From Bacteroidales bacterium (lineage in GTDB: Bacteria; Bacteroidota; Bacteroidia; Bacteroidales; UBA932): a stretch of 64,000 nt of DNA. Of the stretch, positions 26,757 to 44,020 are shown piece by piece. Below the pieces are notes generated by a model. It was given only the letters and a program-made list of their open reading frames with translations, searched no databases and was not told the origin of the DNA. The stretch is from assembly GCA_033811195.1 (NCBI GenBank), contig JAPXOZ010000004.1, forward strand, positions 36,625 to 100,624. The letters run 5' to 3'. The position numbers and the translations under genes are program-made. Positions within the stretch are counted from its first letter, which is position 1. Every line of letters begins with the position of its first letter.

Positions 26757-27689
26757 ATGGCAGACTCCTGGAAAGTAATAGTAAGTAGCCTGTCGGGTGG
26801 CGGCAAAGCCGGCAGCGAATGGCCTGAAATAGCAGCCCGCCTTGAAGCCAGAGGTATCGCACACTCTGTTTCTTTTACAAAACACCGTTTCCACGCCAGA
26901 GAAATCGCATTAGAGGCTCTCAAAGAGGGCTTTAGGCAGATTATCGTGGTAGGCGGAGATGGGGCTTTACACGAAGTGCTTTCCGGAGTAATGTCACAGA
27001 GTAAAGTCCCTACAAATCAAGTAACCTTGGCAATAATTCCTGTTGGCTCGGGTAATGACTGGGCTCGTCTTCACGAGATTCCTAAGGGCTTTGATGATGT
27101 CACGGATGTTATCGCCAGAGGAAAGAGTGTGGTTCAAGATGTTGCGAAAGTTGAGTCCGTTATGGACGGAGCTCCATTTATATCCTATATGGTCAATATT
27201 GGGGGCTTGGGATTCGACGCACAGGTTTGTCACAATTTCGACCTGGAAAAAAAGGAGGGCAAGGCAACAAGTGATGCACTTTATCTCAAATGCCTTCTCA
27301 AGGGGTTTATGGGATACGATGCGCGCAAGTTCCGTATAATGACTGACGGTAATCTCTTCTATGAAGGTGATGTCTTTTCAGTTGCAATGGGTATAGGAAG
27401 GTATTCCGGTGGAGGTATGATACAGACCCCAAATGCTCTTTTTGATGATGGTTTGATTGATCTTACAGTCATCAAAGATATCCCTAAATCAAAGATTTTG
27501 CGTAAGATTCCCACTCTATTCACGGGTAAGATATATGATGTAAAAGAGGTCATTCATACCCAGGCACGCGTTATTGAAATTTCGGCTGATCCGGAGTCAT
27601 TTGTCGAGGTAGACGGCGAGGCCGTCGGCTTGAGTCCAATCCGTGTAGAGGTAATTCCAGCTGCAATTAGAATCATCACCAATCTGTAA
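26757..27689 (+). CDS. Diacylglycerol-kinase-family lipid kinase (YegS/BmrU type)
   Basis: DAGK catalytic-domain blocks IIVVGGDGALHEV and IIPVGSGNDWAR. Confidence 0.8.
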   Translation: MADSWKVIVSSLSGGGKAGSEWPEIAARLEARGIAHSVSFTKHRFHAREIALEALKEGFRQIIVVGGDGALHEVLSGVMSQSKVPTNQVTLAIIPVGSGNDWARLHEIPKGFDDVTDVIARGKSVVQDVAKVESVMDGAPFISYMVNIGGLGFDAQVCHNFDLEKKEGKATSDALYLKCLLKGFMGYDARKFRIMTDGNLFYEGDVFSVAMGIGRYSGGGMIQTPNALFDDGLIDLTVIKDIPKSKILRKIPTLFTGKIYDVKEVIHTQARVIEISADPESFVEVDGEAVGLSPIRVEVIPAAIRIITNL

Positions 27690-27692
27690 GAG

Positions 27693-30185: not shown

Positions 30186-30190
30186 TTCCA

Positions 30191-31690
30191 ATGGGAGTGA
30201 TAATCAGACAGAGTTTTAAAGGAACGTTGGCAAACTATCTTGGTGTTGCCATAGGTTTCTTTACTACTTTTTTCGTTCTTGTACGTTATCTTACTCCCGA
30301 AGAAATTGGTTTGACAAGAGTGTTGTTGGATGCGGCGGTTTTGCTTGCCGGTCTTTCACAACTGGGTACCGGTTCATCCACGATGAGGTTTTTCCCCTAT
30401 TTTAAGGATGAAAAAAATAAGGACAACGGTTTCTTTTTCTGGACCTTGATTATTCCGCTGGTCGGTTTTGCCATCTTTACTCTCTTGTTCTTCATATTCA
30501 AGAGACCGGTGTGTGATTTCTTCCAGGAAAAATCACCTTTGTTTGTAGATTACTATCATTTGGTTGTTCCTATAGCATTCTGGATACTTTATAACACGGT
30601 ATTTGAATGCAATGCCAGTGTGTTGGAAAGAATCGCGGTGCCGCGATTCATAAAAGAGGTCGGTTGCAGGATATTTTTGCTTGGCCTTTATCTTTTGTAT
30701 GGATTCAAAGTAATCAGTTTTGAAAGGGTACTGGAAGGCTTTGCCGTTACCTATTTTTTGTGCACATTATTGAATATCGGGTATCTTATATCATTGAAGA
30801 GAGTCTCCTTCAAACCCAATTTCAAATATGTGACACCAAAAATCCGTAAAGACTTTACATTATATACGCTCTTTTTGGTAACGGCTGCTATTGCAGGTTT
30901 GATTACGCCGAGCATTAATACCTTTTTTGTAACAGCAAAGATGGGACTGGAGTCAACGGGAGTTCTAACAATTGCGATATATATTGTAGCGATTATCGAG
31001 ATGCCCTATCGATCTTTGGGTGTGGTTTCACTTCCTTCGATATCTCAAGCTATGAAGGATGGGGATCTACAGCGCACAAATCAGTTATGCAAGAGCGTTT
31101 CCCTGCATCAGTTACTGATATCCTCGTTCATTTTTATGGTGATATGGATGAATATAGACCTTTTCTTTGAGTTGCTTCCCAATGGAGACAAATATTCCGG
31201 CGCAAAAATGATTATTGCTATTCTCGGATTGTCGAGAATCCTTCATTCTTCACTAAGTATAGCCACTTCTGCATTGGGATTTTCGAAACATTACTATTTT
31301 TCTCTAATCTTCACCTTTGTTCTGACTTTTACGGCAATTGTGTTGAACAACAAGTTGATTCCAATTTATGGAATTGATGGCGCTGCGTGGGCTACTCTAA
31401 TATCTTATCTCGTAGCTTATTTATTTCTTCTGCCTTTTCTTTACTTTACCACAAAAGTCTCAATTCTCTCTAAAGGACAGATAATAGTATTTTTAATTTT
31501 TATTATTATGCTGCTAATGGAGATATTTTGGAATAGGTTGTTTAAGATACCTTCTTCAATGGGACTAAAAATAACCTTTTACTTAGTAAAAACATTGGTA
31601 ATCTGTTCTTTGGGAATAGCCGGAATATACTTTAACAAAGTTTCCGTTGATATAAATAGAATTATAGAGAAGGTCTTTAGGCGAAAGTAG
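30191..31690 (+). CDS. Oligosaccharide flippase family protein (MOP/Wzx-like)
   Basis: 499 aa with about 14 transmembrane segments, the typical Wzx-type length and topology. 5-nt gap after the YfhO gene. Confidence 0.7.
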   Translation: MGVIIRQSFKGTLANYLGVAIGFFTTFFVLVRYLTPEEIGLTRVLLDAAVLLAGLSQLGTGSSTMRFFPYFKDEKNKDNGFFFWTLIIPLVGFAIFTLLFFIFKRPVCDFFQEKSPLFVDYYHLVVPIAFWILYNTVFECNASVLERIAVPRFIKEVGCRIFLLGLYLLYGFKVISFERVLEGFAVTYFLCTLLNIGYLISLKRVSFKPNFKYVTPKIRKDFTLYTLFLVTAAIAGLITPSINTFFVTAKMGLESTGVLTIAIYIVAIIEMPYRSLGVVSLPSISQAMKDGDLQRTNQLCKSVSLHQLLISSFIFMVIWMNIDLFFELLPNGDKYSGAKMIIAILGLSRILHSSLSIATSALGFSKHYYFSLIFTFVLTFTAIVLNNKLIPIYGIDGAAWATLISYLVAYLFLLPFLYFTTKVSILSKGQIIVFLIFIIMLLMEIFWNRLFKIPSSMGLKITFYLVKTLVICSLGIAGIYFNKVSVDINRIIEKVFRRK

Positions 31691-31691
31691 A

Positions 31692-33233
31692 CTATTCCTC
31701 TTCTACCGGCAACCGGTACTTGTTTCTGAATATTTTTCCCAATATCAATCTCATCGCGGAGACTGTGAAAAGCAGAAGTTTTTTTGAGCCTAGAATTTTT
31801 TGGTAATTAACTCCGTGAGCTTTGAAACCGCAGATCGAAATTGAGTAGGTAGTGTAGTCAAAATAGTTATACATCTGTTCTTCAACTGTGGCTCTCTTGA
31901 AGTCCATAATGTAATATCCGAATTTCTGAATAAAAAGATTGTTCTTTGGCTCAATAGGGGACTTAATCATAGGTATGATTTCCTCTTTTGTTTTTGGAAT
32001 ATGACAGATATCGGCGTAATAGTAGAGTGATGCTCCAAGAAGAATAACTGGTTTATGCCAATACGCAGCCTCTATTCCCATAGTAGAACCGAATACCACG
32101 ACCTTGTCGGCAGCATCCATAAGTGCGTAAGTGTCAATTCTGTCGGTAGCATGGATAACAGTGATATTGGCATATCGTTCACTCAACTTGTATAAGTCAG
32201 TATGGTATTTATAGCCAATCTTGGAAAGATTTGGATGCACTCTGAGGTAAAAGTGATAATCCTTAATCCCCTTGAAGTGGTCCAGAATGTATTTTAGACC
32301 CTCTAATTGTGTGTCAAAGAGAGCTAGTTTGTCAAAATCGCCGCCTACTGCAGCAAATTCATCCTCCGATGAATTGAATATGGCAATGTTGTGTTTGGAA
32401 TCATCCCAGTCCTCGGGAAGAAGCCCTAATTCCTGATGAGTAGTATAAATTATATCTCCTGCACGTTTTTTCTCCCTCCTTTTTATAAAGAAAGAGTTTG
32501 CTATTGATATCTTCTCTTCTTCTTCCAGAGGGGAGTTATTCCACATCTCAGCAATAACTTTGTGTCGATTTTTGATGTTGTGGGATAAATAATTCTCAAA
32601 CACTACTTTGAACGACTTGTTGGGGTTGTGACTGGGATGGACTTCCATCACATCTACAGGAACATTTAAAGTCTTACAAGTATCGAAAAGTACCCTTGTC
32701 TCAAGTAATCGTCCATTGAAGAGTACGACCTTGTCAGGCTTCAATTCTGAAAGAAGTTTGTAAGATGCATCTGTCAACGTGCGGCCTTGATCAAGAAGGT
32801 GGTCAAAATAGGGTTTACTCTCCGGGGTAATCTTTGGGTGGAGATTTCTGGTATTGTCAATATAAAATGATATTGCTGCCAATCCGATATTTGCATTACG
32901 GTAGACAATGTTGCGAAATTCTCTTGATGAAGTGTAACTCCAACCGGTTCCACCGGTTTTAGACTCCGCATAGTCGGCAAAACTGATCCTCTTTATATTC
33001 TTGTCAAGCACGGAAAGGGCCTTGGATGTCCATAATTCACAAGTTATACAAAGTCCCTTATTGGCTTGTGGGTTGCCTGAACAACAGTTCATGATATGTT
33101 TGCCACATTTTTTGCCGCAAGTCAAAAAATAAACTTCATGACCCTCATTAGCCACCTTCTGGGCCTCATCGCTAAGAACACCATAAGCAATCTTATTGTA
33201 TAATATGCAGGTTGAATAAAAGAGAATTTTCAT
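31692..33233 (-). CDS. KpsC/KpsS-like (Capsule_synth-type) putative glycosyltransferase; candidate CMP-nonulosonate-dependent transferase
   Basis: 513 aa with an HP motif (FYLRVHPNL) and the downstream block VVVFGSTMGIEAAYWHKPVILLG, which resembles the S-T-x-G-x-EA...KPV signature of KpsC/KpsS-type enzymes. N-terminal Cys cluster CGKKCGKHIMNCCSGNPQANKGLCITC. Last gene of the nonulosonate operon. Confidence 0.45.
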   Translation of the reverse strand: MKILFYSTCILYNKIAYGVLSDEAQKVANEGHEVYFLTCGKKCGKHIMNCCSGNPQANKGLCITCELWTSKALSVLDKNIKRISFADYAESKTGGTGWSYTSSREFRNIVYRNANIGLAAISFYIDNTRNLHPKITPESKPYFDHLLDQGRTLTDASYKLLSELKPDKVVLFNGRLLETRVLFDTCKTLNVPVDVMEVHPSHNPNKSFKVVFENYLSHNIKNRHKVIAEMWNNSPLEEEEKISIANSFFIKRREKKRAGDIIYTTHQELGLLPEDWDDSKHNIAIFNSSEDEFAAVGGDFDKLALFDTQLEGLKYILDHFKGIKDYHFYLRVHPNLSKIGYKYHTDLYKLSERYANITVIHATDRIDTYALMDAADKVVVFGSTMGIEAAYWHKPVILLGASLYYYADICHIPKTKEEIIPMIKSPIEPKNNLFIQKFGYYIMDFKRATVEEQMYNYFDYTTYSISICGFKAHGVNYQKILGSKKLLLFTVSAMRLILGKIFRNKYRLPVEEE

Positions 33234-33254: not shown

Positions 33255-34253
33255 TTAAATGATGTCCAGGATTGTACCACCCCATGAGTAACCTACCCCG
33301 AATCCGGAAAGCAAAATTTTGCCTTTTAAAACACCGGATTTTCGTGCTTCTGTTAATGCTATAGGTATTGTGGCAGAGACCGTGTTGCCTACATTCTCCA
33401 TAAAGTAGTAGAAGCGTTTTTCATCGATCCCCATCTTCTTTCTGAGAAAGTTAAGCATGAATTTGTTGGCCTGATGAAAGACAAACAACCCGATCTCTTC
33501 TTTCTCCAATTGATTTTTTACCAGAAGATCATTCACCATCGTAGGTACTACGCTCTGCGTAAAATTGAAAATAGCACTACCATCCATATAGAGAAAGTCA
33601 TCGGAAACGGGATTTCCATTTTCATCATAACTGAATTTGCCGGATAACTCTTTCTGCCTGAAGGCACCTGTTTTAATAATAAGATTTGAAGCTCCGGCAC
33701 CGTCCGTACCAAGAATGAATTCTCTAATTTTCGCAAAACCATCTGCAGAAACAAGGGTGGCTGCAGATGCATCACCGAAAATTGTTCGGTTACCCTTATC
33801 TTTAGAATGTATATGTTTAGTATATGTTTCTGATGTAATAAGAAGTACATTGCTGGCAATTCCCGATAATATGAGTCCTTTTGCTAGAGCAAGACCGTAT
33901 ATGTATCCCGAACAGCCAAGGTTGAAGTCTAATGCGCCTGCAGATGTGGGCAAGTTTAGCCTATCCTGAAGAATGCATGCGGTAGTGGGGAGAAAATAAT
34001 CCGGTGATTGTGTGCAAAGCATCAAAAAATCTATATCAGTCGGATTGATATTGTTTTCTGCAAACAATTTTTCAGCCACCTTAAATGCCATATCTCCGGC
34101 AGTCTGGTCTGCCGCAGCAATGTGTCGCTGAGAGATACCTATTTTCGAAGAAACCTTTTCAACACTCCATTCGGGAAACTCCTTAACCAGTTCTTCGTTG
34201 GTTAAAATTGTCTCTGGTAGATAATATGATATTGCTTTGATATATGCTTCCAT
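33255..34253 (-). CDS. 3-oxoacyl-ACP synthase III (FabH-like) family protein
   Basis: KAS III Cys-His-Asn triad contexts are visible: NLGCSGYIYGL, VFHQANKFM and NVGNTVSATIP. Confidence 0.8.
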   Translation of the reverse strand: MEAYIKAISYYLPETILTNEELVKEFPEWSVEKVSSKIGISQRHIAAADQTAGDMAFKVAEKLFAENNINPTDIDFLMLCTQSPDYFLPTTACILQDRLNLPTSAGALDFNLGCSGYIYGLALAKGLILSGIASNVLLITSETYTKHIHSKDKGNRTIFGDASAATLVSADGFAKIREFILGTDGAGASNLIIKTGAFRQKELSGKFSYDENGNPVSDDFLYMDGSAIFNFTQSVVPTMVNDLLVKNQLEKEEIGLFVFHQANKFMLNFLRKKMGIDEKRFYYFMENVGNTVSATIPIALTEARKSGVLKGKILLSGFGVGYSWGGTILDII

Positions 34254-34255
34254 AA

Positions 34256-35014
34256 CTACATGCAGGTATAACCTCCGTCAATTATTATATTAGAGCCTGT
34301 CATCCAGGCAGTGGCATCAGAGAGCAGATAAACTGCAGTCCAGGCGACTTCTTCCGGCTTGCCATATCTCCCTATAGGGTAATTTAACCGATCCTTTTCC
34401 AGTTGCTCCTTCGACACAGTTCCGTCAGCCATAATGGCGGTGTCGACCATACCCGGACTTATACAGTTAACTCTGATTCCTTTAGGAGCCAACTCCAGAG
34501 CAAGAGATTTGGACATTGCCGCTATGGCACCTTTGGATGCGGAGTAACTTGCAATACCGATGGCTGATACAACTCCTCCTGAAATTGAGGATATGAAAAC
34601 CACAGATGCATTTCTGTTCAGCTGTTTGCTTTTAATGAAATGCTGGGTAAGCATAGTGGGTGCAAAGAAATTAACTTCCATTACAGAATCCACGAACTCC
34701 CTGTTATTGAAACGGAACGGTACATGGTTAATGATACCGGCGCAGTTTACCAGACCGTCAATATTGCCGGAAAACTTTGTCAGGGAGTCGAGTTGTGAAG
34801 CATCTGTCAGGTCTGCGGCATACATTGCATTGTCTAGGCCATCCATCATCGATAAGGTTTCGGCCAGACGAGTCTCATTTCTTGCCGTAATAAGCACTTG
34901 TGCGCCCATTCGGGAACATTCTACTGCAATAGCTCTTCCAATACCTGAGGAGGCTCCGGTAACCAGAATTCTCTTTCCGGTCAATGAAAATGGATTATAG
35001 GATTCGGTGTTCAT
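34256..35014 (-). CDS. SDR-family oxidoreductase (3-oxoacyl-ACP reductase FabG-like)
   Basis: TGASSGIGRA cofactor motif and the YSASKGA (YxxxK) active site. Confidence 0.8.
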   Translation of the reverse strand: MNTESYNPFSLTGKRILVTGASSGIGRAIAVECSRMGAQVLITARNETRLAETLSMMDGLDNAMYAADLTDASQLDSLTKFSGNIDGLVNCAGIINHVPFRFNNREFVDSVMEVNFFAPTMLTQHFIKSKQLNRNASVVFISSISGGVVSAIGIASYSASKGAIAAMSKSLALELAPKGIRVNCISPGMVDTAIMADGTVSKEQLEKDRLNYPIGRYGKPEEVAWTAVYLLSDATAWMTGSNIIIDGGYTCM

Positions 35015-35033
35015 ACTTTAATTAATAATAGTC

Positions 35034-35264
35034 CTATTTTCTACTTTCGACAAGATCGAAAAGATCCCGTATTGTTTTGGAGTTGCGGATATCATCACCT
35101 TTTATTTGGACACCGTATTGTTCATCCACCATAGCGATTATTGTCAGAGCAAGGAAGGAAGACCATTCATCCAGTGTCTTAAACTCTGTCTCAGCTTTGA
35201 ACTCAGAAGAATCAGTTTCATCAAACTGAAAAGCGAAATTTTCTACAAACTTTTGAATATCCAT
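35034..35264 (-). CDS. Acyl carrier protein (stand-alone, glycan-locus type)
   Basis: 76-aa acidic four-helix-sized protein. Its LDEWSSFLALTIIAMVDEQYG block matches the (D/S)S-x-x-x-L phosphopantetheine-site context of polysaccharide-locus ACPs. Confidence 0.7.
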   Translation of the reverse strand: MDIQKFVENFAFQFDETDSSEFKAETEFKTLDEWSSFLALTIIAMVDEQYGVQIKGDDIRNSKTIRDLFDLVESRK

Positions 35265-35322: not shown

Positions 35323-35964
35323 TCAGAATTTTAAAATTGTTGCAGGATTTCCGACGTAAGAATTACCATCCTTTACTTTAGTCATCAATACACTTGATGC
35401 TCCAAGACGTACTTGATTGCCAATTTTCATTTGTTGAAGTACAACACTTGAAACGCCGAAAAAATTACGATTGCCGATTGATACATTTCCGGCTATTCTG
35501 ACTGAAGGCATCAGTGCATTGAAATCACCTATTGTTACATCATGCCCAATATTTATCATTCCATTGAAAATGTTGAAGTCTCCTATTTTTACATCGCATG
35601 AAAATAGGCAACCGGTGCAAATAATATTGCCTTTTCCAAATGAAATATTGTCTTTATCAAGGAATACCGTGTCCGGAGAAAATAGGTTTGGGAAAACGAT
35701 GTTCTTATTTTTGATTTCGCTTGCAACCTTAAAAACAGATTCGGGATTGCCAATGGCAATCACAACATTTAATTCCTCCTCCCATGCATTCAATTCAGGA
35801 ATATCACCAAGCATCCTGCCATATTTACTCTCTTCTCCAATCTCCTTGTCCCGATTGAAAAAGCCAATGAAATTCCAGATAGGTTCCTTTTCATTGATGC
35901 GGTTTATTAGACAGGCTACTTCTTTTGAAAATCCGCCTCCTCCATATATTGCAATATCCTTCAT
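35323..35964 (-). CDS. NeuD/PglD-family sugar N-/O-acyltransferase (left-handed beta-helix)
   Basis: The start at the ATG 35964 gives MKDIAIYGGGGFSKEV (NeuD/PglD N-terminal Rossmann-like domain). The C-terminal half is made of hexapeptide repeats (IGDFNIF.., IGHDVTIGDFN.., IAGNVSIGNRNF..). Confidence 0.75.
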   Translation of the reverse strand: MKDIAIYGGGGFSKEVACLINRINEKEPIWNFIGFFNRDKEIGEESKYGRMLGDIPELNAWEEELNVVIAIGNPESVFKVASEIKNKNIVFPNLFSPDTVFLDKDNISFGKGNIICTGCLFSCDVKIGDFNIFNGMINIGHDVTIGDFNALMPSVRIAGNVSIGNRNFFGVSSVVLQQMKIGNQVRLGASSVLMTKVKDGNSYVGNPATILKF

Positions 35965-36036
35965 GATAAAAAACTTGTTCAAACAAACCACAAATATACT
36001 ATTAAACTGTGATTAATGCTATCAATTTAGTCCACC

Positions 36037-37083
36037 CTATCTTTCCACTAAATGCTTTACAAGTTCGTTGGCTTTCTTATAGTCCTCGTTTTTACCGATG
36101 TCTATCCAGTAACCGGTGATAGGAAACCTGACAACTTTTGAGCCACGTGAAATCAAAAGTTCAATAAGATCAGTAGCGTCAAAATACTCATTATCTGGTA
36201 TTAGTGAGAGCATTTCTTTCTTTATCAGATATAGACCGGCATTTGCATAGTAGTTGTAGGTCGGCTTTTCAGCAAGAGCCTTAATGGAATCTTGTTCAAT
36301 CTCAAGGATTCCGTACGGAATGGAAACGGAGTAGGGGATAGCAGCGACAGACATATCTGCTTCACTTCGAACAAAGTCGAGGTAGAAATCCTCGTAATTG
36401 ATGTTGGTAAAAAGATCTGAATTCATTACCAATATCGTGTCGTTATGGAATGTTTCCACAAACTTAACTGACCCTATGGTTCCAAGAAATTTTGGCTCTC
36501 TAATGGTATTGATTGTTACGCCGTTTCTTGGCTTGGAGAAGTGCTCTTCCAAGTGTTCTTTAAGATAATTTACTGTAACGGAAATATGTTTTATACCGTA
36601 TGATAGTAAACGGTCAATATTGTGATCAATGATTGTTTTATCTCCCACTTTGAGAAGAGGTTTGGGTGTAGCATCCGTCAAAGGTCTTAGACGTTCTCCT
36701 TTGCCACCGGCCATCAACACAGCATCTACAGGGAGCATAGATTTTTGTTTCGCAGTGTCTATGATTCCAACCAGCCTCAACTCCTCATCAAGTATTGGAA
36801 TGACCTTTATGCCCCTTTTTTTAATTTGATGAAATGATTCTACTGTCTCGCTTTCATTAGATGCATAGAATGAGAAGTCGTTGTTCATAGCAGTTGTGAC
36901 GCAGTCAGTCAAAGCTCCTCCTTCAACCAGTCTTCTGCGGATATCTCCGTCGGTGATTGTGCCGACAACCCTGTTATAGGGGTCAGTCACAAACAAAGTA
37001 AGTCCGATAACAGTAAAATCGTTAAGCAACTTAAGCGCATCCAGTATTGTAGCTGAATTGCTTATGGTATTATTCTTTATCAT
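36037..37083 (-). CDS. ptmE: CBS-domain sugar-phosphate nucleotidyltransferase (PtmE-like)
   Basis: Tandem CBS region in the N-terminal half, then an NTP-transferase domain (VLMAGGKGERLRPLTDATPKPLL). I prefer the ATG at 37083 (MIKNNTIS), which avoids overlap with the upstream SDR gene. Confidence 0.65.
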   Translation of the reverse strand: MIKNNTISNSATILDALKLLNDFTVIGLTLFVTDPYNRVVGTITDGDIRRRLVEGGALTDCVTTAMNNDFSFYASNESETVESFHQIKKRGIKVIPILDEELRLVGIIDTAKQKSMLPVDAVLMAGGKGERLRPLTDATPKPLLKVGDKTIIDHNIDRLLSYGIKHISVTVNYLKEHLEEHFSKPRNGVTINTIREPKFLGTIGSVKFVETFHNDTILVMNSDLFTNINYEDFYLDFVRSEADMSVAAIPYSVSIPYGILEIEQDSIKALAEKPTYNYYANAGLYLIKKEMLSLIPDNEYFDATDLIELLISRGSKVVRFPITGYWIDIGKNEDYKKANELVKHLVER

Positions 37084-37087
37084 TGTA

Positions 37088-37831
37088 TTATATTGCTGTC
37101 CAGCCGCCATCCACGGCTATATTTTGTCCGGTAATATATTTAGCCCCGTCTGACACAAGGAAGAGGCAGATTGGAGCGATATCATCGGGATTGCCCATCC
37201 GTTTCATTGGACATTTGTAGGTGTATTTCTTAACAAATTCCTCTCGCTGATTGTCAAATATGCCTCCTGGAGAAACACAGTTGACTCTGACATTATACTT
37301 TCCAAAATAAGAGGCTAGATAACGCGTAAAGTTGATTATTGCACCTTTTATTGCGCAATATTCGCCCGGAGAAGTGCCATTGTAATCTTCATATATAGTA
37401 AAATCATTTCCAACAATTCCATAGATGGAGCCTAAGTTTACTATAGAGCCATATTTCTGCTCCTTCATAACATTCAAGACCTGCTGATTGAGGTAAAAAA
37501 CCGAATTTAGCTGAAGACTAATATTATTTTCCCAATGGGAAAAAGGAGATTCTTCGAAATAGTACTTTCCCCAATCTTTTGTACGAGGGTAGGCAGCATT
37601 AACAAGTGCATCAATTCGCCCATATTTTTCCACAACAAACCTTATCAGAGCATCAATTGATGAATTGTTGGCAAGATCAAGCTTGAAAGTATTATTTTCC
37701 GAGAAGGTTTCATTGGCCAAATCCGCATCTATTACAATAGAATTTCTCTCTTTGAACTGTTTTACAATTTCTCTTCCGATCAATCCTTTGCCGCCGGCAA
37801 CAATTACTATTTTATTCTCAAGGTCTTTCAT
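37088..37831 (-). CDS. SDR-family oxidoreductase (PtmA-like)
   Basis: Rossmann motif VAGGKGLIGRE and an SDR Y/K active-site region (YCAIKGA). Located inside the nonulosonate operon. Confidence 0.65.
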   Translation of the reverse strand: MKDLENKIVIVAGGKGLIGREIVKQFKERNSIVIDADLANETFSENNTFKLDLANNSSIDALIRFVVEKYGRIDALVNAAYPRTKDWGKYYFEESPFSHWENNISLQLNSVFYLNQQVLNVMKEQKYGSIVNLGSIYGIVGNDFTIYEDYNGTSPGEYCAIKGAIINFTRYLASYFGKYNVRVNCVSPGGIFDNQREEFVKKYTYKCPMKRMGNPDDIAPICLFLVSDGAKYITGQNIAVDGGWTAI

Positions 37832-38750
37832 AATCCAGACATAATTTCAAAATCTTATTTGCAAATATAATATCATTGAAAGAATCTTTCTCATTATTTG
37901 AGACAAGATCGAAGAAGTACCTCATCTGCTCGGCATATGTATCAGCACCACTCTGCTCTGACTGGAAAATGACAAACCCATTAGAATCGGTAATAGAGTT
38001 TTTAGCCAAGTCCACCTTCCATGTTACGGAATCAAAGAGAATCTCTATCTCTCGTTTATAATCCCTTCTAAAGTAATTGAGTGTTATGTCGCAGATAAAA
38101 TCTTCATAAAATAGAAGATATTTTGCATAATCTATTGCGTCAATCTTAAGAGATGATTTGCTACGACAAAAGGCCCTGTGACTCTCAGGCACTCCAAATA
38201 TCCAACATATATAGTCTAATTCGTGAATCAGATCGAGATGAACACCTCCTCCCATTTCCGGTTTAGCGCTATATGAGTCCTTAAAATCGGTTCCGGGACG
38301 CCATTCAGGAAGATAGGAGCCACAATAGACATTCACTTCATTGATTTTTCCGGGTGTATTTCCCGATTCGATGCATTCCTTTAAATATTGAATAACTTCA
38401 AGGAATCGAAGGTTACAGGCCACGTATGACAATATTCTACTCTCTTTAATGCTATTTATGAGACCGTCGATGGGCGAGGAAGCTACCGGTTTTTCTATAA
38501 AGAGTGGAATTTTGAATTCCAAAAGTTTTTGTATGGTGTTTTTGTGCTCTGATGTTGGATTGGATATTATGGCAAAATCAAAACCGATATTTGATGCCTC
38601 ATCAAATGAGTAAAGATTTGTGATTCGGTCATAGGTCTGCGCATTGTGTTGTGACCTCAATGCGTAGATGGAGGCATTGCTGTCAATAGAGCGTATTGCT
38701 GCAATGTGTTTTTTTGCTATAGAGCCAAGTCCGATAATCAGAATTTTCAT
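37818..38750 (-). CDS. Gfo/Idh/MocA-family oxidoreductase (PtmF-like)
   Basis: N-terminal MKILIIGLGSIAKKH dinucleotide fold and the EKP block (LFIEKPVA) typical of Gfo/Idh/MocA enzymes. Confidence 0.65.
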   Translation of the reverse strand: MKILIIGLGSIAKKHIAAIRSIDSNASIYALRSQHNAQTYDRITNLYSFDEASNIGFDFAIISNPTSEHKNTIQKLLEFKIPLFIEKPVASSPIDGLINSIKESRILSYVACNLRFLEVIQYLKECIESGNTPGKINEVNVYCGSYLPEWRPGTDFKDSYSAKPEMGGGVHLDLIHELDYICWIFGVPESHRAFCRSKSSLKIDAIDYAKYLLFYEDFICDITLNYFRRDYKREIEILFDSVTWKVDLAKNSITDSNGFVIFQSEQSGADTYAEQMRYFFDLVSNNEKDSFNDIIFANKILKLCLDYERP

Positions 38751-39478
38751 TATAATTCAATTCGTTTGGTTGAGAGCAGAAAGGAGAGATAGTCAAAGTC
38801 GTGAGGTTCGTCCAGATCAAAACAGATATGGTTCATCAAATAACATTTTGTTTTATTTGTAAGAGCTGTGGATGTATCCGTATCGAAGAAGTAGCGACGA
38901 TAAACATAAATAGAGGCATTTATATCGTAAACTTTAGGCGCAGCTTGCCTTGAGAGATATCTGCCCTCAATCACGAGCTTACAGTAACCGTCCGGTTTTT
39001 CCTCAACCTGGTTAAAATAAGGATTTCTAGCACAGTGATTAACCGAAAAGACCGTCATCAGGTCATTGTCCTTATTAAACATAGTGAGACAGTTGATTAT
39101 GTCATCAGTTGTTCTTATCGGTGAAGTAACATCCAGATCCACTATGAAATCATATTTACAGCCATTCTTCGTTTCCGAGTGGAACACAAGATCTCTAATA
39201 GCATCTATCTTCCCGCAGGTGTCGTTGGCCAGATAAGCCGGACGTTGATAATCGGATTTCAAGCCGAATTCTGAGGCGCATGTTCTGATTTGCTCCGAAT
39301 CGGTTGAGAGCTCAATATCAACCCTGCATTCGGATAATTTCTCTTTTACCCGTTTGGCTGCCTCAATAGTATATGCTATGAGGGGTTTTCCACCCACTTC
39401 CTTGATATTCTTACCTGGGATGCCTTTTGAACCTCCTCTTGCGCAGATTGTAATAAGTATATTGCTGTTATTTTTCAT
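38750..39478 (-). CDS. legF: Acylneuraminate cytidylyltransferase family (CMP-nonulosonate synthetase, LegF/NeuA-like)
   Basis: ICARGGSKGIPGKNIK N-terminal signature of CMP-sialate/CMP-Kdo-type cytidylyltransferases; 242 aa. Start and stop each share 1 nt with the neighbouring genes. Confidence 0.75.
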   Translation of the reverse strand: MKNNSNILITICARGGSKGIPGKNIKEVGGKPLIAYTIEAAKRVKEKLSECRVDIELSTDSEQIRTCASEFGLKSDYQRPAYLANDTCGKIDAIRDLVFHSETKNGCKYDFIVDLDVTSPIRTTDDIINCLTMFNKDNDLMTVFSVNHCARNPYFNQVEEKPDGYCKLVIEGRYLSRQAAPKVYDINASIYVYRRYFFDTDTSTALTNKTKCYLMNHICFDLDEPHDFDYLSFLLSTKRIEL

Positions 39479-40638
39479 TATTTCAAATCATAAAAACTCT
39501 TTTTAGTGCAGTTTTGAAGATCATAAGATGAAATGATTTCGTAAATGGTCTCTGCACACCTCTCCTTTTCGTATGGGTTGATACTCTTCTCAGAAAGTGT
39601 CTGATGTTCCGGGGATAAAACATGCTCTATACCTTTTGATATGGATTCTTTGTCATTTGCGCAGTGAACCACACTCCGGGAAGCGATACGACCTTTCTGT
39701 CTCTCGCCAATATTTAGAGTGGGTATGCCAAATGAGGGGACTTCAACAATTCCGCTTGAGGAATTGCCAACAATCGCCTTGACATACTGCAGCGCTGAAA
39801 GATAGCGTTTTACTCCAAGAGAAGGGAAGGCTTTGGAGTTATCCGGATGTTGTTTTGTATACTGTTCGATTGCATGCACAATTGCTTTATGCCCAGTATC
39901 GGAATTGGGCATTGTGAATATTACTCTAAGGTTCGGATATTGCGCGATTGCTGCAAACAATTCATAAATATCTCTTTTAGGGTCACCTCCGAGAGTTTCA
40001 GGATGATATGTGACAAGAATGGTGCGGTCGTCAAATCTAAACTCAAGAGAATTCTCAAGTTCCTCTTTATTCATCAATGGTATCTGCTTGATGTTTTCCA
40101 CTCCTAAGGAGCCTACATTAAAGACTCTTTCCGGATTTTCACCGAGTTGTATGACACGTTTTCGATACTCTTCACATGACGTGAAATGAAGTGAACTCAT
40201 TTTTGTGATAGAGTGACGGATTGCATCGTCATAAGCTCCTTCGGTGACCTCTCCTCCATAAAGGTGGGCTATCGGAATCCTGGAAATCAATGCTCCGGTG
40301 GCAGCTGAAAGCATCTCATATCTGTCCCCGAGAATGACGACTATATCAGGTGTAAGTTCCGAATAAGCTATTCCAAATCCTTCTAGTCCCTTTGACATTG
40401 CCTTTAATGTGGAAACAGGCAAGTCTTCAGCAACTTCGTCAATAATCGGAACCTTTTTGTCAATTTTAAATCCATCACTCTCGATTTCCCGATATGTCTC
40501 ACCAAACTTTGGGGATAGATGCATATTAGTGGCAATAATCTGCAATTGCAAGGTTGAATCCTCCTGCACAAGGCGCATAAGGCGACTTAAAAGGCCATAC
40601 TCGGCACGGGATCCTGTAACAAAGCAGATTTTTCTCAT
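39478..40638 (-). CDS. legG: Hydrolysing NDP-N-acetylhexosamine 2-epimerase (NeuC/LegG family)
   Basis: MRKICFVTGSRAEYGLL N-terminus and the GDRYEML block typical of NeuC-type hydrolysing 2-epimerases; 386 aa. Confidence 0.8.
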   Translation of the reverse strand: MRKICFVTGSRAEYGLLSRLMRLVQEDSTLQLQIIATNMHLSPKFGETYREIESDGFKIDKKVPIIDEVAEDLPVSTLKAMSKGLEGFGIAYSELTPDIVVILGDRYEMLSAATGALISRIPIAHLYGGEVTEGAYDDAIRHSITKMSSLHFTSCEEYRKRVIQLGENPERVFNVGSLGVENIKQIPLMNKEELENSLEFRFDDRTILVTYHPETLGGDPKRDIYELFAAIAQYPNLRVIFTMPNSDTGHKAIVHAIEQYTKQHPDNSKAFPSLGVKRYLSALQYVKAIVGNSSSGIVEVPSFGIPTLNIGERQKGRIASRSVVHCANDKESISKGIEHVLSPEHQTLSEKSINPYEKERCAETIYEIISSYDLQNCTKKSFYDLK

Positions 40639-41639
40639 ATCTCAATCAATTGGTCTTCTAAAAAATCCTGTTTAGCGGTTAGTCCTATAACTTCATCCCA
40701 TCTCATTGGAGAGATACCATTTCCAGGTCGTTTTACAGTGAGGTTTTCTTCTGTAAATTTCTCTCCTGCCTTAATGTTTTTTGCTGCAACAATGCTTTTT
40801 CTTGCAATGGCAATATTCTTTCGTTCACTTGTGGTTACAATCTTTTTATCGCTACCTAGGGCTATTTCGATATTTCTAATAGCATTTACCATTGCTTTCA
40901 ACTCATGCGGTTCGAGTGAGGCAACATGGTCGGGTCCGGGCAATGTCTTGTCAAGAGTAAAGTGCTTCTCAATAATTTCAGCCCCCATGGCTACCGCTGC
41001 TATTGGAACTTCAATTCCTAGAGTATGATCAGAATAACCAACCCTCACACAAAAATTCTCTTTGAGGGTATTCATTGCTCTGAGATTGACATCCTGCATA
41101 GGAGTGGGATACTCGGTATTGCAATGGAGAAGTGAAATGCTTTTCAAAGAGAGTCCATTGTCTGTCAAGACTATCAATGCATCTTCGATCTCATCTGTTC
41201 TACACATTCCGGTAGACATTATCACAGGTATGCCCAGTTTCGCAATTTTTCTTAGATAGGGTAGATTTGTTATTTCTCCTGATGGAATTTTAAAGTAGTC
41301 CATATCCAATCCACTAAGAAAATATACGGATGGTAAATCAAAAGGTGTCGATAAAAAACTGATCCCTATTTTGTCGCAATAACTTTTCAATTCGGTGAAC
41401 TCGTCAAATGTAAGCAAGAGCTTTTCAATCATTTCAAGTTGACTTTCCTGATTACCGATATTCTTCTTTTGATAATCTGCCATTTCTGCAAACTTGGAGA
41501 CCAGTAATCTTGGAATGCCTGTCTGAAACTTCACATAGTCGGCACCTGCTTCCTGCGCAGCCTCTGCAAGTTGTTTTGCCATTTCAAGACTGCCATTGTG
41601 ATTAACACCTGCTTCAGCTATGATGATGACTTTGTTCAC
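40635..41639 (-). CDS. legI: Nonulosonic acid synthase (NeuB/LegI family)
   Basis: IIAEAGVNHNGSLEMAKQL N-terminus, a TIM-barrel NeuB domain and a C-terminal SAF/antifreeze-like domain (VKRPGNGISP). Confidence 0.85.
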   Translation of the reverse strand: MNKVIIIAEAGVNHNGSLEMAKQLAEAAQEAGADYVKFQTGIPRLLVSKFAEMADYQKKNIGNQESQLEMIEKLLLTFDEFTELKSYCDKIGISFLSTPFDLPSVYFLSGLDMDYFKIPSGEITNLPYLRKIAKLGIPVIMSTGMCRTDEIEDALIVLTDNGLSLKSISLLHCNTEYPTPMQDVNLRAMNTLKENFCVRVGYSDHTLGIEVPIAAVAMGAEIIEKHFTLDKTLPGPDHVASLEPHELKAMVNAIRNIEIALGSDKKIVTTSERKNIAIARKSIVAAKNIKAGEKFTEENLTVKRPGNGISPMRWDEVIGLTAKQDFLEDQLIEI

Positions 41640-42808
41640 TTGATTTTATTTTTATAGGAAGAATTAAAGTTTATACTACTCGGAATATTTACAACCCTAT
41701 CCGCAAACCATTCGGTGTTTTTAAGTCCGTTTGTCTGGCAATTGAGGAACATTGGGAGCCGATTCATCAGCTCCCAAATGGGACGTGTCATAATTCCATT
41801 GTTGTTGGTATATTGGAGGAAACCGTCACGGGTATCCCGATCTTTCGTAATGACTGCATTGAGCCAATAGTTTGATCGGCAGCTTGCAGGTTCGGAAAAG
41901 AATTCAAACCCTTCGATCTCTTTGAAAAAGTCCGAATAATGGGAGGCTGTTTCGCGTTTGTTGAGCACAAACTCTTCAAGCCTCTCCATCTGGGCACATC
42001 CAAGGGCGGCATTGATATTTGGCATACGGTAATTATAGCCCACTTCGTCGTGATAGAATTCCCATTTATGGGGCCTCTTTGCCTGCGTAGTGAGGTGTTT
42101 TGCCCTGGCGGCAAGTACTTCATCATTGAAAAGGAGCATTCCTCCGCCTCCGGTAGTAATGGTCTTGTTACCGTTGAACGAGAGTATGCCTATTAGGCCG
42201 AAAGTACCGGTATGTTTTCCTTTATAAAATGAGCCAAGGCTCTCGGCGGCATCTTCGACCAGTTCCAGATGCCATTTGCTGCAAACCGCCATAAGTTCAT
42301 CGAGATGGACGGGATGACCGAATGTGTGCATCGGCACACAGCATCGGATCCGGCGACCGGTACTCTTGTTATAACACTCATTTCCGCGTAGCTCGGCGTT
42401 CTCCTCAAGCCAATATTCTGCCGCAGTGGGGGAGAGCCCCATTGTATCGCGGTCAACATCAATGAAGATCGGGTGGGCGCCGATATAACTGATAGCATTG
42501 CAGGTTGCAACAAAGGTGAGAGCTTGAGTGATCACTTCATCCTCGCGCTTTACGCCTGCTAGCATCAAGGCCAGATGTAGTGCATTGGTGCCGTTTACAC
42601 ATACCACAGCTTTTTCGGCGCCGGTGTAATTGGCCACCATTTCTTCAAATTGATCCACAAATTTTCCCACACTGGAGACGAAAGTGGAATCAATGCACTC
42701 ATCCAGATATTTCTTCTCATTACCGGTGAAGACCGGTACACTGAGAGGAATGAAATCCTGAGAATTATAGAGTTCCCTGATATATGATGCAATCCTGCTA
42801 TACATCAC
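41636..42808 (-). CDS. legC: DegT/DnrJ/EryC1/StrS-family PLP-dependent sugar aminotransferase (LegC-like)
   Basis: 390 aa, aminotransferase class V-like. Active-site lysine context SFNGNKTITTGGGGML. 4-nt overlaps on both sides. Confidence 0.75.
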   Translation of the reverse strand: MMYSRIASYIRELYNSQDFIPLSVPVFTGNEKKYLDECIDSTFVSSVGKFVDQFEEMVANYTGAEKAVVCVNGTNALHLALMLAGVKREDEVITQALTFVATCNAISYIGAHPIFIDVDRDTMGLSPTAAEYWLEENAELRGNECYNKSTGRRIRCCVPMHTFGHPVHLDELMAVCSKWHLELVEDAAESLGSFYKGKHTGTFGLIGILSFNGNKTITTGGGGMLLFNDEVLAARAKHLTTQAKRPHKWEFYHDEVGYNYRMPNINAALGCAQMERLEEFVLNKRETASHYSDFFKEIEGFEFFSEPASCRSNYWLNAVITKDRDTRDGFLQYTNNNGIMTRPIWELMNRLPMFLNCQTNGLKNTEWFADRVVNIPSSINFNSSYKNKIK

Positions 42809-42811
42809 TCG

Positions 42812-44020
42812 TTACATTTTCTGATCAAGATTCTTACCCTTTTCCACATGTTCGAAGTTGGGAAGAAAAGTGCATAAAGTCTCAACTATACCGGCTTTTG
42901 TGCAGGCCGGACACTTAAATAGTGATTCAAGTGTGGAGATGTATCCGGAGATCTCATCCACCGTACAATGGGTTTTACCCTTGATTACACCGAGCGAAGA
43001 GAAGGTCTCCATATCAATTTTTTCTCCCGGTACGAAGAACTCCTCGATATCCTTTTCACCGGTGGTGTCGCTCTTAAAATAGAATACCGGATATTCTTTA
43101 TCATCCTCTTTCATCAGAGAAGCGTACAAACGGGCTTCGCGATCGCTGGTACACTCTTTTTTGGTATAGCCGAACTCATCCACAAATTTATCGCAAATTG
43201 CAGAAAAAGTAGTCATTTGCTCTTGTCCCAGTTTTGGAAAAAAGATCTCTCCGCTATTGCCGAGAATGCAAGCAAGCAGACATATCTCTCCGCTCTCCTG
43301 CGGTGAAACGAAGTATCTTTTAACATCGGAGGGTGCTACCAGAGGCTGTTTTTTCATAATTCTGTTTAGCCAGCTATCTAGGAGGGAACCGTTGGAAAAT
43401 GCAACATTTGCAAATCTGGCGGTAGTTACCGGAAAGCGCTCTTGGTATGACATCACTAATTTTTCCATCAGAAGTTTGCTGGCTCCCATTATATTTACAG
43501 GATTTGCCGCTTTGTCTGTGGAGACACAGAAGAAATGGCGGGGCGGGTATTTTGACAAGAGCTCCATCAGACCCTTTGCCTTGAACACATTGTTGACAAT
43601 GAGCGCCTGAACGGAGAAAGTATCACGTTCGCTGCGGACATGTTTGTGAGCAGAAAAATTCGCTACTATATCAAAACCTTTTTCGCAAATGAATAATTGT
43701 TCGAATATCGGGCTGGTAAAATCGAGCGTGTAGGTACGGTAATCATCGGGTACAAACATTCCCTCAGTAGACCTGAGATCCCTGGTAAGTTCTACAAGAC
43801 CATTCTCGCTCAAATCCACGACTACAAGTGAAGATGGCTTGAAGGGGAGGATGGCTTTTATGAAGGATGATCCAATGCTGCCGGCACCTCCAATTACACA
43901 TACTCTTTTGTCACAAATGGCCTCTTCAAGTCGCTGTCGATTGGCTTCAATGTCTTTTATAAAAAGACTTTTATCCCTTTTTGTGATATATTTGGAAATG
44001 AATTTGCTTATATCAAACAT
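42812..44020 (-). CDS. legB: NDP-N-acetylhexosamine 4,6-dehydratase (soluble CapD-like; LegB/LgaA-type)
   Basis: 402 aa with Rossmann motif VIGGAGSIGSSF and an extended-SDR catalytic region (STDKAANPVNIMGASK). First gene of the nonulosonate module. Confidence 0.7.
   Translation of the reverse strand: MFDISKFISKYITKRDKSLFIKDIEANRQRLEEAICDKRVCVIGGAGSIGSSFIKAILPFKPSSLVVVDLSENGLVELTRDLRSTEGMFVPDDYRTYTLDFTSPIFEQLFICEKGFDIVANFSAHKHVRSERDTFSVQALIVNNVFKAKGLMELLSKYPPRHFFCVSTDKAANPVNIMGASKLLMEKLVMSYQERFPVTTARFANVAFSNGSLLDSWLNRIMKKQPLVAPSDVKRYFVSPQESGEICLLACILGNSGEIFFPKLGQEQMTTFSAICDKFVDEFGYTKKECTSDREARLYASLMKEDDKEYPVFYFKSDTTGEKDIEEFFVPGEKIDMETFSSLGVIKGKTHCTVDEISGYISTLESLFKCPACTKAGIVETLCTFLPNFEHVEKGKNLDQKM

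What the first reader, a model, noticed from the sequence alone, without database searches (positions are those of the whole stretch)
31692..33233. Cys-rich 513-aa HP-motif protein at the end of the operon: candidate novel nonulosonate (legionaminyl) transferase
The protein has an (R)VHP motif (FYLRVHPNL). About 45 residues later comes GSTMGIEAAYWHKPVILLG. This resembles the HP and S/T-x-G-x-EA...KPV signatures of KpsC/KpsS-type beta-Kdo transferases. An HP motif is also shared by several sialyltransferase families. All of these use CMP-activated ulosonic acids. The position immediately after the CMP-sugar biosynthesis and acylation genes fits the enzyme that consumes the product. The N-terminal 70 residues contain a dense Cys cluster (CGKKCGKHIMNCCSGNPQANKGLCITC) that I do not associate with that family and that could bind metal. 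Transferases for legionaminic acid are poorly characterised, so this is a worthwhile candidate.
Basis: partly seen in the sequence, partly recalled or inferred. Interest (0 to 1): 0.6.

Follow-up and report, generated by a model that had tools for sequence, protein, structure and literature searches.

The report
Candidate KpsC-like legionaminic acid transferase
The last gene of a legionaminic-acid (sialic-acid-like sugar) operon encodes a distant, cysteine-cluster-bearing cousin of the capsule enzyme KpsC that most likely attaches that sugar to a surface glycan; no member of its family has been tested, although the function was already predicted in 2015.

Summary
A 513-aa ORF lies at 31692-33233 (minus strand) with RVHPNL, GSTMGIEA...KPV and an N-terminal Cys cluster.

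**Family features**
- The protein passes Pfam Capsule_synth over its C-terminal core only.
- The family holds about 700-1,500 clusters at 50% identity, in Bacteroidota, CPR, Cyanobacteria and Proteobacteria.
- All 12 homologue loci examined carry NeuB and a CMP-synthetase within 10 kb. The target's nearest relative examined sits in a Leg-type locus.
- The genome has one NeuB locus and one such protein.
- Four cysteines (C-x4/6/11-C-x10-C-x2-C) are kept in 113 of 116 members, so a structural metal site is probable.
- The literal QxxxD nucleophile motif of Kdo transferases is absent; an invariant S-S-E-D-E occupies its place.

**Verdict**
Kenyon et al. 2015 predicted "Gtr59-family" PF05159 proteins, including a Bacteroides fragilis one, to be retaining Leg/Aci/Pse transferases. 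The related KpsS1 (GT118) is a proven Pse transferase. The scan has also flagged similar KpsC-like candidates in many other genomes. The function is still untested.

The parts
31692..33233 (-). 513-aa GT-B-fold protein, candidate CMP-nonulosonate (Leg-derivative) glycosyltransferase
33039..33119 (-). Residues 39-65, the Cys cluster. The family-conserved ligand candidates are C39, C51, C62 and C65; C43 and C50 are lineage-specific extras. Probably a structural metal (Zn) site.
   Evidence: C51, C62 and C65 in 116/116; C39 in 95/116. Of the 21 without C39, 18 carry a Cys two residues later. Spacing is C-x4/6/11-C-x10-C-x2-C. The site is also kept in the distant proteobacterial and cyanobacterial members.
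32358..32375 (-). Residues 287-292, N-S-S-E-D-E, directly after the first beta-strand of the C-terminal Rossmann domain. This is the topological position of the QxxxD nucleophile motif of KpsC/WbbB/KrkA.
   Evidence: N287, S289, D291 and E292 are 100% conserved in 116 sequences. In the distant clade only S288, S289, E290 and E292 persist. DSSP places strand 281-286 just before the motif. The register against QxxxD is unresolved.
32226..32252 (-). Residues 328-336, FYLRVHPNL: the HP (CMP-phosphate binding) motif
   Evidence: R331, H333, P334 and N335 are invariant. The motif aligns with the HP of E. coli KpsC and KpsS.
32034..32090 (-). Residues 382-400, GSTMGIEAAYWHKPVILLG: the nucleotide (ribose) binding loop-helix typical of GT-B C-domains
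   Evidence: S383, G386 and E388 are invariant or nearly so. The stretch aligns with KpsC TSQYGFEALLAGKPV and KpsS NSTAGISALIHNKPL.
31731..31784 (-). Residues 484-501, a C-terminal amphipathic helix; probably a peripheral membrane anchor
   Evidence: AF2 helix 484-501. Mean Kyte-Doolittle hydropathy 1.14 and hydrophobic moment 1.01. No window reaches the transmembrane threshold. The family median moment is 1.07.
35323..44020 (-). Donor pathway: LegB-like dehydratase, LegC, NeuB/LegI, NeuC/LegG, CMP-synthetase, PtmF-like, PtmA-like and PtmE-like proteins, and a NeuD/PglD-type acyltransferase
   Evidence: Pfam. NCBIfam scores above cutoff: LegC family 573 against 420, NeuB_NnaB 490 against 400, NeuC_NnaA 456 against 236.
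33255..35264 (-). ACP-like ORF (35034-35264), FabG-like reductase and FabH-like KAS III. This cassette probably supplies a non-acetyl N-acyl group for the nonulosonate.
30191..31690 (+). Convergent Wzx-like flippase with 12 predicted TM segments; the likely next step after cytoplasmic glycan assembly
   Evidence: Pfam Polysacc_synt; TM count. A Wzx gene follows the homologue in B. fragilis locus L001.

Best explanation
The gene encodes a cytoplasmic, peripherally membrane-associated GT-B glycosyltransferase. Its likely donor is the CMP-activated legionaminic-acid-type nonulosonate made by the 12 genes upstream, probably carrying a non-acetyl N-acyl group. Its likely acceptor is a lipid-linked glycan, which is then flipped by the adjacent Wzx-like protein. 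The C-terminal Rossmann domain binds CMP through the RxHPN and GSTxGxE motifs, as in KpsC/KpsS. The invariant acidic cluster S-S-E-D-E after the first strand of that domain, together with E197 (E/D throughout the family) in the N-domain, are the candidate catalytic residues. A conserved four-cysteine site in the N-domain probably holds a structural Zn. What is shown: the ORF, the motifs, their conservation, the fold similarity, the synteny and the Leg-type pathway. What is inferred: the donor, the acceptor, metal binding and the stereochemical outcome. Retention is suggested only by kinship with KpsC and by Kenyon's Gtr59 assignments.
Against: No member of this family has been assayed. Sequence similarity to KpsC/KpsS is limited to about 80-130 residues of the nucleotide-binding core. 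The literal QxxxD motif is absent, and D291 is replaced by N or E in distant members. B. subtilis SpsB, which has HP motifs and lies next to Leg genes, proved dispensable for Leg transfer (PMC7439481), so adjacency plus motifs can mislead. [quoted passage not shown] The locus holds no initiating transferase or Wzy, so the acceptor is unknown.
Confidence: 0.75

Rival explanations
1. It is a nonulosonate transferase but with an unusual acceptor or mode. It could be a KpsS-like primer enzyme that puts the sugar on a lipid (phosphatidylglycerol or polyprenyl-P-sugar), with a flippase and the neighbouring YfhO-like GT-C completing the route. Alternatively it could be a processive poly-Leg polymerase.
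For: The island contains only one other GT (a soluble GT2), a Wzx-like flippase, a YfhO-like GT-C and a lipid-kinase-like gene, with no Wzy or initiating transferase. KpsS, a relative, acts on a lipid. The C-terminal amphipathic helix suggests membrane contact.
Against: In other genomes the homologue sits in ordinary Wzx/Wzy repeat-unit loci with several GTs. Similarity to KpsS is no greater than to KpsC.
Confidence: 0.15
2. It transfers something other than the nonulosonate. The donor could be another sugar, or a CDP-activated polyol phosphate as in TagB/TagF-like enzymes. Its adjacency to the pathway would then reflect only shared membership of one glycan locus, as with B. subtilis SpsB.
Against: KpsC ranks above all TagF-like structures, with much lower rmsd. 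The 12/12 linkage is specifically to NeuB plus a CMP-synthetase, across four phyla and across loci that otherwise share little. No CDP-glycerol or CDP-ribitol genes were seen in the window.
Confidence: 0.1
3. It is not a transferase but a GT-B-like enzyme of nonulosonate metabolism, for example a nucleotide-sugar hydrolase or epimerase like PseG or NeuC, or a CMP-sugar-modifying enzyme.
For: There are weak sub-threshold Pfam hits to Epimerase_2 (E 0.013) and DUF354. UDP-GlcNAc 2-epimerases are frequent fold neighbours.
Against: The Leg-type loci already encode a complete pathway, including a NeuC-type enzyme that scores above its cutoff. The epimerase matches have rmsd of 9-13 Å against 4.7 Å for KpsC. 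The HP and SxGxEA motifs are those of CMP-ulosonate transferases.
Confidence: 0.04

Closest known systems
KpsC (CAZy GT107; PDB 6mgb, 6mgc, 6mgd, 8fuw), the retaining beta-Kdo transferase of group 2 capsules
   Different: Only 25% identity over 80 residues. There is no literal QxxxD and no EDGF-type general-base motif. The target adds a Cys4 site, extra helices between Cβ1 and Cβ2, and a C-terminal extension of about 60 residues. It is linked to 5,7-diamino nonulosonates rather than Kdo.
Gtr59 family of Acinetobacter baumannii KL12/KL63 and 'Gtr59-like' proteins (Kenyon et al. 2015, PMC4487303)
   Same: These are PF05159 proteins encoded next to the nonulosonate module. They were predicted to add Aci5Ac7Ac (K12) and legionaminic acid (K63, beta-2,6) with retention. 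A Gtr59-like protein of B. fragilis CL05T00C42 next to a Pse module is cited. The target's 41%-identical homologue P0112/P0121 is a B. fragilis protein, with the CL05T12C13 strain name in its cluster, that lies next to a Pse module.
   Different: I could not obtain a Gtr59 sequence, so identity of the two families is probable but not shown, and the accession cited in the paper was not among those listed for the cluster. Gtr59 itself is only a prediction. The Cys4 site and the SSEDE motif have not been described for it.
KpsS1 (CAZy GT118), the retaining Pse5Ac7Ac transferase of A. baumannii (Walklett et al. 2024, as cited in PMC12887879)
   Same: It is a KpsS/KpsC relative that transfers a 5,7-diacylamino nonulosonate from its CMP donor. 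It is encoded beside the sugar's pathway and is the only biochemically proven member of this wider group that acts on a nonulosonate.
   Different: KpsS1 is reported to be about 30% identical to E. coli KpsS. The target shares 29% identity over only 85 residues. KpsS-like proteobacterial proteins (26% identity over about 330 aa to KpsS) match the target's family HMM only over about 70 C-terminal residues and lack the Cys4 site. The donor here is Leg-type, not Pse.
Tannerella forsythia Tanf_01245 / TFUB4_00887 / BFO_1060 (NCBIfam NF046086), Pse- and Leg-derivative transferases of the general O-glycosylation system
   Same: Same phylum and same proposed job. There is an HP motif and a weak but real C-domain homology (E 2e-6, residues 293-424).
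   Different: The score is 27 bits against a cutoff of 200, so the target is not a member. The Tannerella enzymes are about 445 aa and TagB-like. They are supported by genetics, not by enzymology.
WbbB GT99 and KrkA GT140, retaining Kdo transferases
   Different: They are structurally more distant than KpsC. Both have QxxxD with a proven Asp nucleophile, which is not conserved as such here.

Membership tests
Pfam PF05159 Capsule_synth | Whole-protein score at or above the gathering cutoff (20 bits) | tested here: met
   28.8 bits, E 1.1e-6, but only residues 308-406 against profile positions 168-268 of 310. The six-frame search of the genome gives 29.7 bits.
GT107 (KpsC/KpsS) | KpsC-like two-domain GT-B-type fold | tested here: met
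GT107 (KpsC/KpsS) | [quoted passage not shown] | tested here: met
   H333-P334 are invariant in 116/116 and align with KpsC H194-P195 and the KpsS HP.
GT107 / GT99 / GT140 retaining Kdo transferases | QxxxD motif (carboxylate-binding Gln plus nucleophilic Asp) | tested here: not met
   No QxxxD is present. The equivalent position after Cβ1 reads N-S-S-E-D-E. D291 becomes N or E, and N287 becomes V or I, in distant members. Pairwise and profile alignments disagree on the register. A functional equivalent, for example E292, is not excluded.
GT107 (KpsC/KpsS) | Sequence similarity along most of the module | tested here: not met
   BLASTP gives 29% over 85 aa against KpsS and 25% over 80 aa against KpsC. 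hhalign covers 115 columns or fewer.
GT118 (KpsS1) | Close kinship with KpsS1 (reported about 30% identity to E. coli KpsS) | not testable with these tools
   No KpsS1 sequence could be obtained. As a proxy, KpsS-like proteobacterial proteins match the target family's HMM only at the C-terminal core and lack Cys4.
Gtr59 family (Kenyon 2015) | A PF05159 protein encoded adjacent to a non-2-ulosonic acid synthesis module | tested here: met
   All 12 homologue loci examined also meet it.
Gtr59 family (Kenyon 2015) | BLAST-level similarity to A. baumannii Gtr59 (AIT56356) | not testable with these tools
The link is indirect: the paper's 'Gtr59-like' B. fragilis protein next to a Pse module fits P0112/P0121.
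NCBIfam NF046086 (BFO_1060 family, Tannerella Pse/Leg transferases) | Score at or above 200 bits | tested here: not met
   27 bits; 28 bits in the six-frame search.
Classical bacterial sialyltransferase families (GT38, GT42, GT52, GT80) | A match to the corresponding Pfam models (PF07388, PF06002, PF07922, PF11477) | tested here: not met
   hmmscan of the protein at E up to 10 lists only Capsule_synth, Epimerase_2 and DUF354.
Cys4 structural zinc site (feature of this family) | Four conserved Cys with compatible spacing; bound metal | tested here: inconclusive
   Four Cys are present in 113/116 members, with one ligand shifting by two residues in 18 sequences.

The most novel reading that the evidence does not exclude
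This Cys4-bearing family may be a separate, still unclassified glycosyltransferase family of the KpsC-like superfamily. It would transfer legionaminic-acid-type sugars, which I infer to have an equatorial C5 substituent, with retention of configuration. It would use a Glu-centred S-S-E-x-E motif in place of the canonical QxxxD Asp nucleophile, and a structural zinc site. That would contradict the recent suggestion that retaining Kdo-like enzymes cannot readily adapt to sialic-acid-like ulosonates.
Probability: 0.3. Interest if true: 0.6.

Novelty: new member of a known kind. Interest (0 to 1): 0.4.

Why it matters
Few dedicated legionaminic-acid transferases are known: there is one genetic case in Tannerella, and a 2020 paper states that no bacterial enzyme transferring Leg to a cell surface had been reported (PMC7439481). 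Leg and Pse decorate capsules, O-antigens, S-layers and flagella of many pathogens and gut commensals. This family of about 700-1,500 sequence clusters, found in human-gut Bacteroides, marine Flavobacteriia, CPR bacteria and others, is a well-supported pool of candidates for that missing step. Characterising one member would probably define a new CAZy family. It would test whether the covalent-adduct mechanism of Kdo transferases extends to sialic-acid-like sugars. It would also allow functional annotation of proteins now labelled 'capsule biosynthesis/export protein' or 'hypothetical protein'.

Tried and rejected
1. I first thought N287-x-x-x-D291 was the QxxxD equivalent. I dropped this as stated, because D291 becomes N or E and N287 becomes V or I in the cyanobacterial, proteobacterial and G351 homologues. 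hhalign and BLAST give three different registers.
2. A three-module GT107 profile (KpsC-N, KpsC-C, KpsS) did not extend the alignment beyond the nucleotide-binding core.
3. I tried to reach an Acinetobacter genome with the published OXA-51-like primer as a DNA pattern.
4. The Walklett 2024 GT118 paper is not held.
5. The translated plasmid search gave a single hit, Synechococcus NIES-970. It was useful for context only.
6. Own-genome searches for GT52, GT80, GT42, GT38 and Maf families found nothing above cutoff. For GT52, GT80 and GT42 no control genome matched either, and the genome is 92% complete, so this is weak.
7. The PDB profile search by sequence gave only non-significant KpsC hits, E 0.6-1.3.
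8. Other PF05159-like proteins next to NulO genes in a 400-genome proteobacterial sample (L074-L081) lack Cys4 and match the target family only at the C-terminal core. They are sister families, not members.
9. The GT2 and the 351-aa neighbour have no TM segments, so a GtrB-type polyprenyl-P-sugar synthase reading of the GT2 is not supported.

Full report
**The observation**

The window holds an ATG-to-stop ORF at 31692-33233 on the minus strand, encoding 513 aa. It follows the FabH-like gene by 21 nt. It is convergent with a Wzx-like gene whose stop codon lies 1 nt away, so it is the last gene of the long minus-strand operon. FYLRVHPNL sits at residues 328-336. GSTMGIEAAYWHKPVILLG sits at 382-400. 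The cysteine cluster spans residues 39-65.

**Profile searches**

- Pfam Capsule_synth (PF05159, the KpsC/KpsS family) scores 28.8 bits against a gathering cutoff of 20. It covers only residues 308-406.
- NCBIfam gives one weak hit, 27 bits against a cutoff of 200, to NF046086, the 'BFO_1060 family glycosyltransferase'.
- BFO_1060 is an orthologue of Tanf_01245 and TFUB4_00887. These are the Tannerella forsythia proteins shown genetically to be needed for adding the terminal Pse or Leg derivative to the O-glycan (PMC5420450).
- No sialyltransferase Pfam family matched, even at E up to 10.

**The family**

- A word-indexed search found more than 1,000 homologues, nearly all about 500 aa. They are labelled at best 'capsule biosynthesis protein' or 'LipB/KpsS family' and come from Bacteroides, Polaribacter, Nonlabens and a Moranbacteria (CPR) genome.
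- The exhaustive HMMER search of 1.84 billion representatives gave 2,630 hits at E≤1e-3, 1,516 at E≤1e-10 and 691 at E≤1e-30.
- Distribution is patchy. The family was found in 3 of 400 other sampled Bacteroidota genomes and 2 of 400 genomes sampled from a proteobacterial class.
- In 116 full-length members these residues are invariant: C51, C62, C65, G117, R129, R175, W231, N287, S289, D291, E292, R331, H333, P334, N335, S383, E388 and W392. Position 197 is always E or D.

**Fold**

- An AF2 model built on a 31-sequence alignment has mean pLDDT 91.1 and pTM 0.89. It shows two Rossmann-like domains plus a C-terminal hairpin and helix.
- Foldseek ranks KpsC first, at E 1e-8.
- The Z margin over generic GT-B folds is modest, about one unit. 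The rmsd gap is large.

**Sequence relation to KpsC and KpsS**

- I fetched E. coli CFT073 KpsC and KpsS.
- hhalign of the family profile against KpsC-N gives 80% probability, E 1.4e-5. RVHPN aligns with KVHPD, and GSTMGIEAAYWHKPV aligns with TSQYGFEALLAGKPV.
- BLASTP identity is 29% over 85 residues with KpsS and 25% over 80 with KpsC.
- The kinship is therefore real but confined to the CMP-binding core.

**Catalytic motifs**

- The literature defines retaining Kdo transferases (GT99, GT107, GT140) by the HP motif plus a QxxxD motif. The Asp of QxxxD forms a covalent sugar adduct (PMC12887879).
- The three E. coli GT107 modules share E66, Q156, D160 and H194-P195.
- The target has HP but no QxxxD.
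- Directly after the first strand of its C-domain (strand 281-286), where QxxxD sits in KpsC, it has the invariant N-S-S-E-D-E.
- In the most divergent members D291 becomes N or E and N287 becomes V or I, while S288, S289, E290 and E292 persist.
- Alignments give conflicting registers. One places SSEDE opposite the QVEDD of KpsC-C, which would make E292 the counterpart of the nucleophile, but that alignment is not significant.
- The catalytic residue and the stereochemical outcome therefore remain open.

**Genomic context of the target**

Upstream on the same strand lies a complete Leg-type pathway:
- A LegC-family aminotransferase scores 573 bits against a cutoff of 420.
- A NeuB/NnaB-type synthase scores 490 against 400.
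- A NeuC/NnaA-type hydrolysing epimerase scores 456 against 236.
- The remaining genes are a CMP-synthetase, PtmA-, PtmF- and CBS-PtmE-like proteins, and a NeuD/PglD-type acyltransferase.
- An ACP-like ORF, a FabG-like reductase and a FabH-like KAS III complete the set. An earlier follow-up read these as an N-acylation cassette.

The genome (1.93 Mb, 92% complete) has one NeuB locus and one Capsule_synth-like gene.

**Synteny across the family**

I examined 12 homologue loci:
- B. fragilis (L001), Polaribacter (L004), Moranbacteria (L006) and three metagenomic contigs (L007, L015, L016).
- Three GTDB Bacteroidota genomes (L025-L027).
- A Synechococcus NIES-970 plasmid (L028) and a proteobacterium (L031).
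- A more distant hit that matches the N-domain only (L032, G549). It has a CMP-synthetase and PtmA/PtmF-like genes nearby.

Results:
- All of the first eleven carry NeuB and a CMP-synthetase homologue within 10 kb.
- Six loci, counting the window, are Leg-type, with LegG and PtmE present. The others look Pse-type.
- A maximum-likelihood tree splits the family into a deep clade found only in non-Leg loci and a core clade with both types. The target pairs with the L015 homologue, from a Leg-type locus, at 100/99 support.
- In B. fragilis the gene is followed by Wzx, Wzy and three GTs inside a UpxY/UpxZ capsule locus. That fits cytoplasmic addition of the sugar to a lipid-linked repeat unit.

**The cysteine cluster**

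- Of the six Cys in residues 39-65, four are family features. C43 lies in a five-residue insertion unique to the three closest sequences, and C50 is variable.
- C51, C62 and C65 are in 116 of 116 members, and C39 in 95.
- Of the 21 sequences without C39, 18 have a Cys two positions later. So 113 of 116 keep four Cys with spacing C-x4/6/11-C-x10-C-x2-C.
- The distant cyanobacterial and proteobacterial members keep them too.
- A ligand that shifts position while the count stays at four is typical of a structural metal site.
- I could not inspect the model coordinates, so the geometry is untested.
- KpsC, KpsS and the other PF05159-like proteins I found beside NulO genes in Proteobacteria lack this site.

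**What was already known**

- Kenyon et al. 2015 (PMC4487303) assigned A. baumannii Gtr59, a PF05159 protein with no CAZy family, to the alpha-Aci5Ac7Ac-(2-6)-GalNAc linkage of K12.
- They assigned its 90%-identical K63 variant to a beta-(2-6) legionaminic acid linkage. Both linkages require retention.
- They noted 'Gtr59-like' genes beside nonulosonate modules in Photobacterium profundum, E. coli O108 and B. fragilis CL05T00C42, the last one next to a Pse module.
- The target's 41%-identical homologue P0112/P0121 is a B. fragilis protein next to a Pse module, and its cluster includes a CL05T12C13 entry. The target's family is therefore very probably the Gtr59-like family.
- I could not prove this, because no Gtr59 sequence was obtainable and the cited accession was not among those listed for the cluster.
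- The related KpsS1 was later shown to be a retaining Pse transferase and founded GT118 (Walklett 2024, as cited).
- The scan itself holds 59 notes on KpsS/KpsC-like candidates beside nonulosonate genes in other genomes. I treat these as leads only.

**Cautions**

- B. subtilis SpsB has HP motifs and lies beside Leg genes, yet it is not needed for Leg transfer (PMC7439481).
- The JBC 2026 authors argue that the axial C5 group of Kdo and Pse helps position the acceptor, so retaining Kdo-like enzymes may not readily adapt to ulosonates with an equatorial C5 substituent. They name sialic acids; applying this to Leg is my own inference from its sialic-acid-like configuration.
- That argument conflicts with the Leg association seen here and with Kenyon's K63 assignment. 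This is the most interesting open point.
- The window's glycan island (26757-47068) has only a soluble GT2, the target, a YfhO-like GT-C, a Wzx-like flippase and a lipid-kinase-like gene. The rest of the window is housekeeping. The acceptor cannot be named.

**Verdict**

I put 0.75 on a CMP-nonulosonate (Leg-derivative) glycosyltransferase. I file it as a new member of a known kind: KpsC-like nonulosonate transferases, predicted for Gtr59 and proven for KpsS1. Two features appear undescribed, the conserved Cys4 site and the S-S-E-D-E motif in place of QxxxD. Interest is moderate. It is a good enzymology target rather than a surprise.

Noticed in passing
window 26757-31690 (+): A DAGK/YegS-like lipid kinase, an 830-aa protein with 11 predicted TM segments and a sub-threshold YfhO (GT-C) match, and a 12-TM Wzx-like flippase form a tight operon convergent with the Leg locus. 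The window has no Wzy, Wza/Wzc or initiating phosphoglycosyltransferase. The sugar may therefore reach its acceptor by a flippase plus GT-C route.
   Followed up: partly
window 45086-46141 (-): A soluble 351-aa protein with no Pfam or NCBIfam match lies between the GT2 and the NodB-type deacetylase. A 36%-identical homologue sits next to a 65%-identical deacetylase in another Leg-type locus (L007:3569-5531). The pair looks like a conserved accessory module of unknown role.
   Followed up: partly
window 35034-35264 (-): A 76-aa ORF with an acyl-carrier-protein-like DEWSS motif, lying between the PglD-like acyltransferase and the FabG-like gene, gets no Pfam hit at E≤1e-3.
   Followed up: no
L004:14133-17043 and L015:11557-13831: In two Leg-type loci the homologue is followed by an HMGL-like (aldolase/synthase-type) gene and a second CTP_transf_3 cytidylyltransferase, plus a HAD phosphatase in L004. 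This hints at a second CMP-activated acidic sugar made in the same locus.
   Followed up: no
L032 (G549:C1:712475-713029): A 500-aa proteobacterial ORF matches only the N-terminal domain (profile positions 2-187, E 1e-16) of the family. It lies about 8 kb from CMP-synthetase, PtmA- and PtmF-like genes. The acceptor-side domain may be combined with a different C-domain there.
   Followed up: no
L074-L081 (proteobacterial genomes G443, G656, G711, G425, G647, G671, G498): Seven further PF05159-like proteins of 446-533 aa lie beside NeuB-type genes. They lack the Cys4 site and match the target family only at the nucleotide-binding core. Several sister families of KpsC-like proteins therefore appear to be tied to nonulosonate loci.
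   Followed up: partly
L028 (Synechococcus sp. NIES-970 plasmid AP017960.1, 17790-19268): A family member (29% identity, Cys4 kept, D291 replaced by N) is annotated 'glycosyl transferase, group 1'. It sits on a 138-kb cyanobacterial plasmid within a Pse-type locus.
   Followed up: partly
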